DNA of 64,000 nt from a virus (lineage: Duplodnaviria > Heunggongvirae > Uroviricota > Caudoviricetes): the IMG/VR virus record IMGVR_UViG_2639762884_000001; one strand, 5' to 3'. Positions within the stretch are counted from its first letter, which is position 1; each line of letters begins with the position of its first letter. This document shows positions 17,180 to 18,429 of this stretch, piece after piece. The notes beneath the pieces were generated by a model. That model had not been told where the DNA came from, did not search any database, and worked only from the letters and a program-made list of their open reading frames with translations. Both the position numbers and the translations under genes were made by a program.

Positions 17180-17203
17180 AAAGGGGCTTCGGCCCCTTTT
17201 TGG
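17180..17203. terminator. bidirectional rho-independent terminator
   Basis: aggggcttcggcccct with T-run on + side and A-run on the other. Confidence 0.6.
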
Positions 17204-17208
17204 CTGGG

Positions 17209-18429
17209 TTAATTAAAACCGAATGAATTAAGTTCTGCTTTGAATTTATCGACCATTTTTTCAACTTCGTTTACAATTGCGTGAATCTCTTCGTCTTTTC
17301 TCGGATTAGAATTGAGGTCAAAATATGCCTTATATAAGGCATATTTTGACAAGCTTCCTTCAATATTTTCAGAGAAAATATTGGTACGACCATCAGTTAA
17401 TAAGATATCAGCAGATCGGGAATTTAAATTATATTTATAGTAAATCTTTATTAGTCTGCTTATCTCTTTTTCATTCTTGATTACCCTCTGTCTTTTACCA
17501 GCAATATTAAGACTCCAGCCTACATAACTAGTCAGATCGGAATTAAACTTACACACTTCCGCATCAGCTTTTTCCATATTTAGATTAATATTATTTCTCA
17601 TGTGTAGCGGTAATTCGTTGAATTTTTGCTGTAAATGCTGTTTGCAGGGATTGTTGTAAGACCACAGAATTGCGAACGTAGCTCTTTGCATCCGGGTATT
17701 CAGATCGATGTTAAAGTTCTCACGATCACGAATCATTTCATCTACATAAAACTCTACAGCTTTTCGGTATTCTTTGTTAAAGATCTCGGTAACATACATT
17801 TCTAAATAATGGACTTTCGAGATTGCCTCATCAAAAAAAAGCTCACTCTCAAAGAAGTTGTATTTATTTAAGAGATTAGAAAGTCTACTTAAGTCATAGG
17901 TTTTATTATTTTCAATATTAAGACCAAAAATGGCAATTAACAGACTTACTTTATGATTAATACTGCTACGTAATTGAGCTATATAAATTCTCTTTTCATC
18001 TTCTGCTGATGACAGTAGATAAAACTCTTTATCTAAATAATTTAAAATTAGAATTATGTGATTTACATATTTAATGTAAATAGGTTGTTTTGTTACATAA
18101 TAATAAATGCTTTTGATGGAATTAATGCTCAATTTCGTATTAAACTCTTTGTCATTCAACAAAGTGTTATTTACGTCCTCAAGTAATTTATCATGTTGCT
18201 CTAGTAATATTCCGTACCATTCTTTAAAAGAGGCTTTTTTCATTTCAAGAAGTGAATCTGCCGTTAATTGTGTTGCCTTCATTGCAGCTTTTGCACTATT
18301 TCTTGCCTCATAAGCAGCCCAAGCAGTAACAAAAGTAGCAAGTGAACCTATAGCCTCTTTGTATTCTTTAGCCACATCCCAAAAAATAATAGTTATTACA
18401 CACAATATGAGAATTAATATTAAAGGCAT
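17209..18429 (-). CDS. membrane-anchored protein of unknown function (AT-rich accessory gene)
   Basis: N-terminal TM MPLILILILCVITIIFW; remainder K/N/Y/F-rich; composition visibly more AT-rich than neighbours; opposite strand. Confidence 0.55.
   Translation of the reverse strand: MPLILILILCVITIIFWDVAKEYKEAIGSLATFVTAWAAYEARNSAKAAMKATQLTADSLLEMKKASFKEWYGILLEQHDKLLEDVNNTLLNDKEFNTKLSINSIKSIYYYVTKQPIYIKYVNHIILILNYLDKEFYLLSSAEDEKRIYIAQLRSSINHKVSLLIAIFGLNIENNKTYDLSRLSNLLNKYNFFESELFFDEAISKVHYLEMYVTEIFNKEYRKAVEFYVDEMIRDRENFNIDLNTRMQRATFAILWSYNNPCKQHLQQKFNELPLHMRNNINLNMEKADAEVCKFNSDLTSYVGWSLNIAGKRQRVIKNEKEISRLIKIYYKYNLNSRSADILLTDGRTNIFSENIEGSLSKYALYKAYFDLNSNPRKDEEIHAIVNEVEKMVDKFKAELNSFGFN

What the first reader, a model, noticed from the sequence alone, without database searches (positions are those of the whole stretch)
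17180..18429. AT-rich membrane-anchored protein inserted next to the tRNA array
A 406-aa minus-strand gene with one N-terminal TM helix and a K/N/Y/F-rich body sits between the tRNA cluster and the glutaredoxin/recombinase genes, with clearly different composition and a bidirectional terminator at its 3' end. tRNA-adjacent, compositionally foreign, membrane-anchored genes in phages are often abortive-infection or superinfection-exclusion determinants; no known family was recognised.
Basis: partly seen in the sequence, partly recalled or inferred. Interest (0 to 1): 0.6.

Follow-up and report, generated by a model that had tools for sequence, protein, structure and literature searches.

The report
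AbiC-like defence gene in phage-plasmid
This low-GC, membrane-anchored gene on an E. coli SSU5-type phage-plasmid is a very distant, previously unlabelled relative of the lactococcal AbiC/AbiP abortive-infection proteins. It sits in a swap-site where sister elements carry other anti-phage genes, so it is most likely a prophage-encoded phage-defence gene of a known kind, not something categorically new.

Summary
A 406-aa minus-strand ORF (17209-18429) has 31% GC against 45% for the window (z = -4.6). It is rich in N, K, Y, F and I, has an N-terminal membrane anchor, and lies between a tRNA array and glutaredoxin with a hairpin terminator 8 nt past its stop codon.

The window is an E. coli SSU5/pHCM2-type phage-plasmid. 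The gene belongs to a clean 1.45-kb replaceable cassette (17202-18649) whose two boundaries are the same in all 19 relatives compared. The isolated phages SSU5 and Cyrano lack it, and about 20% of SSU5-type plasmids carry a homologue. In near-identical backbones the slot holds alleles only 25-68% identical, or else AbiGi/AbiGii, PDC-S67, an HNH effector or unknown genes, so it is a defence hotspot.

Pfam, NCBIfam and PADLOC do not recognise the protein. However, it is a full-length homologue of PF16872 (putAbiC) proteins: BLASTP E = 2e-16 and hhalign E = 2e-44. Relatives are opposite-strand morons in lambdoid and P2-like prophages. The N-terminal half is conserved and the C-terminal half is hypervariable.

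Verdict: a divergent enterobacterial AbiC/AbiP-type single-gene defence candidate. Its function is inferred, not shown. It is a new member of a known kind, of moderate interest.

The parts
16466..17023 (+). tRNA array (Asn-GTT, Tyr-GTA, Thr-TGT, Ser-TGA) forming the conserved left flank. It is not part of the cassette.
   Evidence: ARAGORN and Rfam. Relatives are 94-100% identical up to 17201.
17180..17201 (.). G+C-rich hairpin (AAAGGGGC-TTCG-GCCCCTTT) plus TT. It is a bidirectional terminator for the tRNA operon (+) and the AbiC-like gene (-). Its last base is the left boundary of the replaceable cassette.
   Evidence: Sequence. Folds on both strands, -14.1 and -19.2 kcal/mol with flanks. Homology to 15 of 19 compared relatives ends at 17200-17202.
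17202..18649 (.). Replaceable 1448-bp cassette, GC 0.309, containing the gene, its upstream region, and the promoter, RBS and first ~4 codons of glutaredoxin.
   Evidence: blastn breakpoints against Cyrano and 19 IMG/VR loci. GC. No other credible ORF in the cassette.
17209..18429 (-). AbiC/AbiP-like (putAbiC superfamily) membrane-anchored protein, 406 aa; the finding itself.
   Evidence: ORF; phrog_18168 at 1e-130; 75 homologues; link to PF16872 proteins; AF2 pLDDT 82.8, pTM 0.74, almost all helical.
18370..18426 (-). Residues 2-20: strongly hydrophobic TM helix 1 (PLILILILCVITIIFWDVA).
   Evidence: Kyte-Doolittle 15-residue mean up to 3.3; helix 3-15 in the model.
18310..18354 (-). Residues 26-40: second hydrophobic segment. 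It is a probable TM2 in the family, shortened by 4 residues in this allele.
   Evidence: KD17 is 1.6-2.0 in other members and 1.05 here. The deletion is visible in alignment A1. The Pantoea homologue starts at this segment.
18220..18309 (-). Residues 41-70: the most conserved stretch of the family (EARxSAKAAMKATQLTxxSLLExKKxSFK). It is a juxtamembrane helix with one invariant face.
   Evidence: Invariant columns; block conservation 0.77-0.87; conservation moment peaks at 100 degrees per residue.
17833..18093 (-). Residues 113-199: region aligned to the PF16872 putAbiC domain of relatives (…YIKYVNHIILILNYLDKEFY…YIAQLRSSINHKVSLLIAIFGLN…LLNKYNFFESELFF).
   Evidence: BLASTP against the Pantoea protein, whose residues 105-186 hit PF16872 at 45 bits; hhalign alignment.
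17212..17832 (-). Residues 200-406: fast-evolving C-terminal half, the proposed phage-sensing or specificity module.
   Evidence: Identity to distant alleles is 17-27% here against 41-46% in the N-terminal half. dN/dS is 0.27-0.28 against 0.11-0.13. Many distant relatives align only over profile positions ~1-200.
18430..18635 (.). AT-rich divergent intergenic region with promoter-like sites for the AbiC-like gene (- strand, 18491->18463) and for glutaredoxin (+ strand, 18532-18561).
   Evidence: Consensus scan only, and the number of sites found is not above the shuffle expectation. The promoter assignment is an inference.
18636..18884 (+). GrxA-type glutaredoxin forming the conserved right flank. 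Homology to relatives resumes at 18649/18650.
   Evidence: Pfam PF00462 at 2e-10; breakpoints.

Best explanation
The gene is a single-gene anti-phage defence determinant of the AbiC/AbiP (Pfam PF16872, putAbiC) superfamily. It is carried as a 'moron' cassette in a defence hotspot of an E. coli SSU5/pHCM2-type phage-plasmid.

Shown here:
- It is an intact ORF under purifying selection, compositionally foreign, and flanked by its own terminator.
- It is dispensable for the phage.
- In otherwise near-identical backbones it is exchanged for very divergent alleles or for other defence genes.
- It is homologous over its full length to PF16872 proteins.
- Its relatives are opposite-strand morons in lambdoid and P2-like prophages.

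Inferred working model:
- The gene is transcribed from its own promoter in the plasmid-prophage state.
- The N-terminal one or two TM helices anchor a ~360-residue helical body on the cytoplasmic face of the inner membrane.
- The hypervariable C-terminal half recognises a protein of a superinfecting phage. By analogy, AbiP is triggered by a major tail protein and AbiC lowers major-capsid-protein production.
- Recognition activates the conserved N-terminal module (juxtamembrane helix plus putAbiC core), which arrests phage development after DNA entry. This could be by binding RNA or ssDNA and blocking the early-to-middle switch and replication, as reported for AbiP, or by disturbing the membrane.
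- The result protects the lysogen population and the resident phage-plasmid.

Confidence by step: superfamily homology ~0.9; anti-phage role ~0.65-0.7; sensor/effector split ~0.4; the specific biochemical effector step ~0.2.
For: Homology:
- tblastn of the window protein hits a Pantoea gene annotated 'putative phage abortive infection protein' (E = 5e-10 against 7.3 Gb).
- Pairwise BLASTP gives 31% identity over residues 29-199, E = 2e-16.
- That Pantoea protein and 9 of 9 other distant relatives found by the family profile pass the PF16872 gathering score (25-45 bits against 22).
- The reciprocal tblastn returns the SSU5-plasmid family (E down to 4e-15).
- hhalign of the family against the PF16872-positive relatives gives probability 100%, E = 2e-44 over 406 columns.
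- 6 of 25 close members touch PF16872 on their own (best E = 1e-4).
- Distant relatives hit the PADLOC AbiC and AbiP models in the same region (about 1e-6 and 2e-4).

Architecture: N-terminal TM anchor or anchors, as in AbiC (2 TM) and AbiP (1 TM) (review PMC13064643).

Hotspot:
- Cassette boundaries are constant.
- The same slot holds AbiGi (5e-47) with AbiGii, PDC-S67 (6e-36), a PDC-M68A-like HNH effector (8e-25) and several unknown genes.
- Alleles 25-68% identical sit in backbones whose ligase and integrase are 99-100% identical.

Dispensability: absent from all 50,697 phage records, including SSU5 and Cyrano. About 20% of SSU5-type plasmids carry a homologue.

Other mobile-element contexts: lambdoid prophage, P2-like prophage between V and S, IncK2/Z plasmid next to RelE/ParE.

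Selection: dN/dS is 0.18-0.20 overall, and the C-terminal half is about twice as free as the N-terminal half.

Background from the literature: 6 of 8 randomly chosen unknown-function loci from P4 hotspots conferred phage resistance (PMC13586616).
Against: - No experiment exists for this protein, and I found none for any proteobacterial PF16872 protein.
- The window protein itself is below threshold for PF16872 and gives no hit to the PADLOC AbiC or AbiP models. The link to the lactococcal proteins is therefore transitive, through HMMs.
- I could not align or superpose real AbiC or AbiP sequences or structures.
- The soluble regions have net charge near zero and no recognisable nucleic-acid-binding motif, which gives no support to the AbiP-like binding step.
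- This allele has a 4-residue deletion in the second hydrophobic segment. Against its nearest allele it shows 20 non-synonymous to 6 synonymous changes (omega ~0.8, small counts). That could mean relaxed constraint rather than diversifying selection.
- The promoter assignment rests on weak consensus matches.
- Hotspots also carry non-defence cargo, such as the fimbrial operon in L072 and L086.
Confidence: 0.65

Rival explanations
1. It is a superinfection-exclusion protein that acts at the envelope. The membrane-anchored protein would block DNA injection or receptor and channel use by incoming phages, in the manner of T4 Imm, P22 SieA or lactococcal Sie2009. It would not abort infection after DNA entry, and no cell death would be involved.
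For: It has an N-terminal membrane anchor and is carried by a prophage. Its moron position and hotspot context fit exclusion as well as abortive infection. The mechanism of AbiC/P is unknown (review PMC13064643).
Against: Its only recognisable relatives belong to a family named for Abi proteins that act after DNA entry: AbiP affects replication and the transcription switch, and AbiC affects capsid protein production. About 360 of the 406 residues form a soluble helical body, unlike the small, mostly membrane-embedded Sie proteins (my own knowledge). The charge distribution puts the body on the cytoplasmic side (R43, K47 and K51 follow the hydrophobic segments).
Confidence: 0.12
2. It is accessory cargo unrelated to phage defence. 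Examples would be a plasmid-stabilising or addiction toxin, a factor for competition between phage-plasmids or against conjugative plasmids, or a lysogenic-conversion membrane protein that affects host physiology.
For: The hotspot also carries non-defence cargo, such as the fimbrial operon, PhoH and YafO toxin modules. One homologue sits beside RelE/ParE and partition genes on an IncK2/Z plasmid. Neither the family name nor the hotspot has been validated in enterobacteria.
Against: No partner or antitoxin ORF lies in the cassette. Homologues also occur in integrated lambdoid and P2-like prophages, where plasmid stabilisation is irrelevant. The alternative occupants of the exact slot are mostly recognisable defence genes. 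The hypervariable C-terminal half and the allele replacement fit an arms race.
Confidence: 0.15
3. It has a housekeeping function in the phage-plasmid itself, such as lysis (holin-like), morphogenesis or replication control.
For: It is a membrane protein encoded in a phage genome near replication-related genes (ligase, CobT/CobS, DNA polymerase region).
Against: The viable isolated phages SSU5 and Cyrano lack it, as does every phage record searched. It is present in only ~20-38% of relatives. It is swapped for unrelated genes at fixed boundaries. Its size and architecture do not fit a holin, and no endolysin lies next to it.
Confidence: 0.02
4. It is a decaying or inactive remnant: an acquired AT-rich ORF that is no longer under selection in this lineage.
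For: There is a 4-residue deletion in the second hydrophobic segment. Omega is ~0.8 against the nearest allele. The -35/-10 matches are weak, and no clear Shine-Dalgarno sequence is visible upstream of the ATG.
Against: The full-length ORF is intact, and the exact protein is found on 57 contigs and in 9 complete E. coli genomes. Long-range dN/dS is 0.18-0.20. P0002, a 69%-identical homologue in a cluster of 144 members, shares the same 4-residue gap. The AF2 model is confident.
Confidence: 0.06

Closest known systems
Lactococcus lactis AbiP (pIL2614) and AbiC (pTN20), grouped as the 'AbiC/P' group in the 2026 review PMC13064643
   Same: Both are single-gene systems carried on a mobile element. 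Both have an N-terminal membrane anchor (AbiP 1 TM, AbiC 2 TM) followed by an all-helical soluble domain with no recognisable fold relative. They share the PF16872-type core, as judged from relatives of the window protein that hit the PADLOC AbiC and AbiP models in that region.
   Different: The window protein is longer than the AbiC and AbiP profiles (406 aa against PADLOC model lengths of 306 and 223). It has an extra hypervariable C-terminal half. It falls below the detection threshold of the AbiC, AbiP and PF16872 models. It is enterobacterial and sits on a phage-plasmid. Nucleic-acid binding, the trigger and the phenotype are all untested here.
Pfam PF16872 (putAbiC, 'putative phage abortive infection protein') proteins of Proteobacteria, e.g. 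Pantoea agglomerans WP_161569778.1
   Same: They are full-length homologues (hhalign E = 2e-44; BLASTP 31% identity over 171 residues) with the same length class (406-495 aa) and the same order of parts: hydrophobic N-terminus, conserved SAK-A helix, then the putAbiC core.
   Different: The C-terminal halves are essentially unalignable at the sequence level. The window clade is confined mainly to SSU5-type phage-plasmids and a few prophages.
phrog_18168 (PHROGs, unknown function)
   Same: This is the same family: E = 1e-130 over residues 14-405.
   Different: The PHROG carries no annotation. The link to AbiC/P made here is additional.
Defence hotspots and morons of temperate phages (P2 old/tin/fun-Z/orf30 loci, P4 hotspots; PMC13586616)
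   Same: There are fixed boundaries with variable cargo, low GC, an orientation opposite to the flanking operons, and a mixture of known defence systems and unknown genes. One family member sits in a P2-like prophage between the V and S genes. That this is the orf30 locus is my own recollection of the P2 map.
   Different: This hotspot lies in an SSU5-type phage-plasmid, between the tRNA-operon terminator and glutaredoxin. I found no description of it in the papers searched.

Membership tests
Pfam PF16872 putAbiC / AbiC-AbiP superfamily | The protein itself scores above the PF16872 gathering threshold (22 bits). | tested here: not met
   No PF16872 hit for the window protein, even at E <= 10. 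6 of 25 close family members hit it weakly, best E = 1e-4.
Pfam PF16872 putAbiC / AbiC-AbiP superfamily | Significant homology to proteins that do pass the PF16872 threshold, covering the domain. | tested here: met
   BLASTP E = 2e-16 to the Pantoea protein (PF16872 at 45.4 bits) over residues 29-199. tblastn E = 5e-10 in PLSDB and reciprocal E = 4e-15. Profile search E = 1e-36 to 1e-16 to ten PF16872-positive proteins. hhalign probability 100%, E = 2e-44. Caveat: A2 was chosen from hits of the A1 profile, so the hhalign result is not independent; the Pfam hits are.
Lactococcal AbiC/P group | Match to the AbiC or AbiP sequence models (PADLOC PDLC02343 and PDLC02351). | tested here: not met
   No PADLOC hit for the window protein or for three close-clade members at E <= 1. 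Distant relatives hit AbiC (1e-6 to 6e-4) and AbiP (2e-4 to 1e-2), so the link is transitive only.
Lactococcal AbiC/P group | N-terminal transmembrane anchor (1 or 2 helices) followed by a soluble helical domain. | tested here: met
   Hydropathy shows TM1 at residues 2-20. The second segment is TM-grade in most members and borderline here. The AF2 model is almost all helical, pLDDT 82.8. The architecture of AbiC and AbiP is taken from PMC13064643.
Lactococcal AbiC/P group | Structural superposition on the shared ~93-residue core of the AbiC and AbiP soluble domains. | not testable with these tools
   No AbiC or AbiP structure or sequence was available. The AFDB library was not installed. PDB and BFVD hold no relative.
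Lactococcal AbiC/P group | A single gene is sufficient, with no partner gene. | tested here: met
   The cassette 17202-18649 contains no other credible ORF. Homologues in the lambdoid, P2-like and IncK contexts have different neighbours. Sufficiency for a phenotype is untested.
Lactococcal AbiC/P group | Abortive-infection phenotype: reduced efficiency of plating and burst size, with phage development arrested after DNA entry. | not testable with these tools
   This requires phage challenge of a strain carrying the cloned gene.
Lactococcal AbiC/P group | Sequence-independent RNA/ssDNA binding by the soluble domain (AbiP). | not testable with these tools
   The only indirect observation is net charge near zero in the soluble regions, which gives no support. 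EMSA on purified protein is needed.
Prophage defence hotspot cargo | Variable content between conserved flanks, with known defence systems among the alternatives. | tested here: met
   Boundaries at 17201|17202 and 18649|18650 are shared by 15 of 19 loci. Alternative occupants are AbiGi/AbiGii, PDC-S67 and the PDC-M68A-like HNH effector.
Holin / lysis membrane protein | A small (<~150 aa) TM protein encoded next to an endolysin in the late operon. | tested here: not met
   The protein is 406 aa with a large soluble body. Its neighbours are tRNAs and glutaredoxin, and viable relatives lack it.

The most novel reading that the evidence does not exclude
Two readings remain open.

(1) The slot between the tRNA-operon terminator and glutaredoxin of SSU5/pHCM2-type phage-plasmids is an undescribed defence hotspot. 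It holds several wholly uncharacterised systems, including a 304-aa, a 529-aa multi-TM and a 637-aa occupant.

(2) The AbiC-like protein is a self-contained membrane sensor-effector. Its swappable, hypervariable C-terminal half reads a phage structural protein. Its invariant small-residue face on the juxtamembrane helix then drives oligomerisation into a membrane-permeabilising assembly. That would be a mechanism for the 30-year-old AbiC/P group different from the nucleic-acid binding reported for AbiP.
Probability: 0.2. Interest if true: 0.6.

Novelty: new member of a known kind. Interest (0 to 1): 0.42.

Why it matters
AbiC was described in 1992 and AbiP in 2004, yet neither has a known fold or effector chemistry.

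A natural series of alleles in E. coli would make the group tractable with E. coli genetics and standard phage panels. The series runs from 25% to 100% identity, sits in isogenic phage-plasmid backbones, and combines a conserved N-terminal module with a hypervariable C-terminal module. Domain swaps between alleles could map the sensor directly.

The family is invisible to the Pfam and PADLOC models, and AbiC is not among the systems a DefenseFinder survey of SSU5-type elements listed. SSU5-type elements are common in Shigella sonnei, S. Typhi, E. coli and Klebsiella, so their defence repertoire is probably under-counted.

The fixed-boundary slot is also a ready source of further candidate systems.

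Tried and rejected
- Direct family searches of the window protein found nothing useful. Pfam, NCBIfam and PADLOC gave no hit, and PDB sequences gave one chance-level hit.
- tRNA-targeted integration was rejected. The tRNA-Ser gene ends at 17023, and homology with relatives that lack the gene continues to 17201.
- A hidden partner gene or RNA in the cassette was rejected. There is no credible small ORF and no Rfam hit apart from the tRNAs.
- A tblastn search for Gram-positive bridges, using the Pantoea putAbiC protein as the probe, reached only Enterobacterales and Vibrio. No direct alignment to lactococcal AbiC or AbiP was obtained.
- A nucleic-acid-binding signature by charge was not found; net charge is about zero.
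- The literature search for 'putAbiC' returned nothing. Searches for AbiC in E. coli hotspots found no experimental work on an enterobacterial homologue.
- The terminator scan did not report the 17180-17199 hairpin. It was verified by folding instead.
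Full report
**1. What is there**

The ORF 17209..18429 on the minus strand encodes 406 aa. Its GC content is 0.311 against 0.453 for the 64-kb window. That is z = -4.6 against all windows of the same length, and it is the lowest of 47 ORFs of at least 150 aa. GC3 is 0.285 against 0.455 +/- 0.064. The protein is enriched in N, K, Y, F and I.

It starts with a strongly hydrophobic helix at residues 2-20. A second hydrophobic stretch at residues 26-40 is TM-grade in most family members. A 4-residue deletion shortens it in this allele.

Eight bases after the stop codon lies the hairpin AAAGGGGC-TTCG-GCCCCTTT (17180-17199), followed by TT. 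It folds on both strands, although the consensus scanner did not list it. Upstream on the plus strand are tRNA-Asn, Tyr, Thr and Ser (16466-17023). Downstream are a GrxA-type glutaredoxin, a tyrosine recombinase and an HTH regulator.

**2. The element**

The window is an SSU5/pHCM2-type phage-plasmid of E. coli. The 13-24 kb stretch is 96-99% identical to Escherichia phages CMS-2020a and Cyrano, but with only 81-86% coverage. The exact protein occurs on 57 contigs, all E. coli and all annotated 'hypothetical protein'. The exact cassette occurs in 9 of 5,426 complete E. coli genomes, always on a 108-116 kb plasmid and never on a chromosome.

**3. A replaceable cassette in a hotspot**

Against Cyrano, homology stops at 17201, the last T of the terminator. 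It resumes at 18650, which is 14 nt into glutaredoxin. Cyrano carries a different 116-aa gene in the gap. The same two breakpoints recur in 15 of 19 IMG/VR relatives compared, whatever they carry in between. The insertion is therefore not tRNA-directed, because tRNA-Ser ends 178 bp before the boundary.

No record in the 50,697-genome phage collection encodes the protein, including the isolated phages SSU5 and Cyrano. In PLSDB, 141 plasmids encode a homologue, 120 of them non-mobilizable. By comparison, 639 plasmids carry the SSU5-type ligase. That is roughly 20%.

I analysed 53 IMG/VR loci that have both flanking anchors:
- 20 carry an AbiC-like gene at this position, always on the minus strand directly after the tRNA array.
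- In backbones whose ligase and integrase are 99-100% identical to the window, the allele is 100, 65, 36, 32 or 30% identical, or absent. Alleles at 100% and ~25% identity were seen only in loci cut off before the integrase (L008; L016, L028).
- Other occupants of the slot, identified from annotation and family scans, are:
  - an AbiGi/AbiGii pair (PADLOC AbiGi 5e-47, Pfam AbiGi 4e-25);
  - PDC-S67 (6e-36);
  - an HNH effector resembling PDC-M68A (8e-25) with a lipoprotein-like partner;
  - a Gp49-family gene alone;
  - three unknown proteins of 304, 529 (multi-TM) and 637 aa;
  - in two loci, a fimbrial operon.

This is the signature of a defence hotspot. A second, smaller variable slot follows glutaredoxin; it holds YafO toxin modules and other genes.

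**4. What the protein is**

Pfam, NCBIfam, PADLOC and PDB sequences give nothing for the window protein. Only phrog_18168, of unknown function, matches (1e-130). The family is small: 75 clusters in 5.8 billion proteins and 89 representatives in 1.84 billion. Almost all lie on contigs of about 105-110 kb.

The key lead was a tblastn hit (E = 5e-10) to a Pantoea plasmid gene that PGAP annotates 'putative phage abortive infection protein'. The evidence that followed:
- That protein and nine further distant relatives retrieved by the family profile all pass the PF16872 (putAbiC) gathering threshold.
- Pairwise BLASTP of window against Pantoea gives 31% identity over residues 29-199, E = 2e-16.
- The reciprocal tblastn returns the SSU5-plasmid family (E down to 4e-15).
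- Profile-profile comparison gives probability 100%, E = 2e-44 over the full length. This test is not independent, because the second alignment was drawn from hits of the first.
- Six of 25 close members touch PF16872 weakly on their own.
- Some distant relatives hit the PADLOC AbiC and AbiP models in the same region.

The protein is therefore a divergent, full-length member of the putAbiC superfamily that current models miss. The link to the experimentally studied lactococcal AbiC and AbiP is transitive. I could not align or superpose those proteins directly.

**5. Structure and evolution**

The most conserved part of the family is residues 32-68 (…TAWAAYEARxSAKAAMKAT…SLLExKKxSF). The invariant residues lie on one helical face, since the conservation moment peaks at 100 degrees per residue. 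Identity to distant alleles is 41-46% in residues 1-200 but 17-27% in residues 201-406. dN/dS against the 65-68% alleles is 0.11-0.13 for the N-terminal half and 0.27-0.28 for the C-terminal half; dS is saturated, so these values are approximate. All alleles keep a low GC of 0.31-0.38.

So the gene is functional and under purifying selection, with a conserved membrane-proximal module and a rapidly changing distal module.

**6. Other contexts**

Chromosomal homologues are opposite-strand morons in other temperate phages:
- In Cedecea, the gene sits between the replication genes (lambda-P-like, DUF1376) and the RusA/Q region of a lambdoid prophage.
- In a 4.7-Mb genome, it sits between the V spike gene and the S tail-completion gene of a P2-like prophage. 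From my own knowledge of the P2 map, this is the orf30 accessory locus.
- In Pectobacterium, it is a lone chromosomal gene about 6.5 kb from an AAA_15/AAA_21 ATPase gene.
- On an IncK2/Z plasmid, it lies beside RelE/ParE.

The same family is thus accessory cargo in at least four kinds of mobile element.

**7. Mechanism**

What is shown:
- homology to PF16872 proteins;
- the membrane anchor;
- dispensability for the phage;
- hotspot exchange;
- modular conservation.

What is inferred, by analogy with AbiP and AbiC as summarised in PMC13064643:
- AbiP needs both its TM anchor and its RNA/ssDNA-binding domain. It blocks phage DNA replication and the switch-off of early transcripts, is not toxic alone, and is triggered by a phage major tail protein. 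AbiC lowers major-capsid-protein production.
- I therefore propose that the protein is made in the lysogen and sits in the inner membrane with its body in the cytoplasm. The positive charges R43, K47 and K51 follow the hydrophobic segments.
- It would sense a protein of a superinfecting phage through its variable C-terminal half, then arrest phage development through the conserved N-terminal module.
- Whether the effector step is nucleic-acid binding or membrane perturbation is open. The near-neutral charge of the soluble regions gives no support to nucleic-acid binding.

Rivals considered: envelope-level superinfection exclusion (0.12); non-defence accessory function (0.15); decaying remnant (0.06); housekeeping phage function (0.02, effectively refuted by the absence of the gene from viable phages).

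**8. Novelty and verdict**

The kind of thing is known: a single-gene AbiC/P-type system carried as a prophage moron in a hotspot. What is new:
- The assignment of this 'hypothetical' enterobacterial family (phrog_18168) to the AbiC/P superfamily.
- The family's invisibility to the Pfam and PADLOC models. A DefenseFinder survey of SSU5-type phage-plasmids lists AbiH, PrrC, PD-T4-3 and others, but not AbiC (bioRxiv 10.1101/2025.09.12.675607).
- The definition of a fixed-boundary defence hotspot in SSU5-type phage-plasmids. I did not find it described in the papers searched.

A recent study found that 6 of 8 unknown-function loci at P4 hotspots conferred resistance (PMC13586616), which supports inferring function from hotspot location. 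The interest is moderate. The main value is a tractable E. coli allelic series for a defence family whose mechanism has been unknown for three decades, plus several unknown neighbours worth testing.

Noticed in passing
window 28457-29422 (-): This is the second-lowest-GC long ORF in the window (321 aa, GC 0.376), also on the minus strand. Residues 45-158 hit a PADLOC restriction-endonuclease-like domain model (Aga_REase-PNTD, 2e-10). It may be another defence moron or hotspot.
   Followed up: partly
window 51548-52105 (+) and 52266-53075 (+): A 185-aa DEDDh exonuclease matches PADLOC DEDDh (5e-25) and PDC-S48 (3e-20). It is followed by a low-GC (0.393) 269-aa ORF with no PADLOC hit.
   Followed up: partly
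window 58008-58622 (+): A low-GC (0.382) 204-aa ORF with no PADLOC hit. It was not examined further.
   Followed up: no
window 16466-17023 versus L001 (Cyrano) and L006 (SSU5): The tRNA array is itself polymorphic. The window has Asn-Tyr-Thr and Ser, Cyrano has Asn-Thr-Ser, and SSU5 has only Asn. The array is ~93% identical to the tRNA clusters of the P1-like phages P7 and D6 and ~79% identical to that of N4-like phages, which suggests exchange of tRNA modules between unrelated phages.
   Followed up: no
window 18857-18946 and the equivalent region of relatives: A second variable slot lies between glutaredoxin and the integrase. The window has only ~90 bp there. Cyrano has a 184-aa gene. Other relatives have a YafO-family toxin with a partner, a colicin-E1-type immunity gene, or unknown genes of 190 and 329 aa.
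   Followed up: partly
window 18636-18649: The first ~4 codons of glutaredoxin, and its promoter and RBS, belong to the variable cassette (MRNILIYGRD here, MTITIYGRD in other relatives). Each cassette therefore supplies its own 5' end for the downstream conserved gene.
   Followed up: partly
L082:13376-14290 (-), L055:13242-14831 (-), L040:13780-15693 (+): Three uncharacterised occupants of the same slot have no Pfam or PADLOC hit: a 304-aa protein found in 7 loci that contains an 'RHIIVHNGG' motif reminiscent of HEPN, a 529-aa multi-TM protein, and a 637-aa protein. All three are candidates for new defence genes.
   Followed up: partly
window 15700-16460 and 15764-15866 (+): About 760 bp upstream of the tRNA array has no convincing ORF. 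It contains a far sub-threshold Rfam match to the 3' part of a tmRNA model (17 bits against a gathering score of 84, E = 0.02), which is probably chance.
   Followed up: no
L072 and L086 (IMG/VR relatives), between the cnp-like gene and the integrase: In two relatives the accessory region carries a chaperone-usher fimbrial operon (AraC-type regulator, chaperone, 833-aa usher, fimbrial subunit) in place of defence genes.
   Followed up: no
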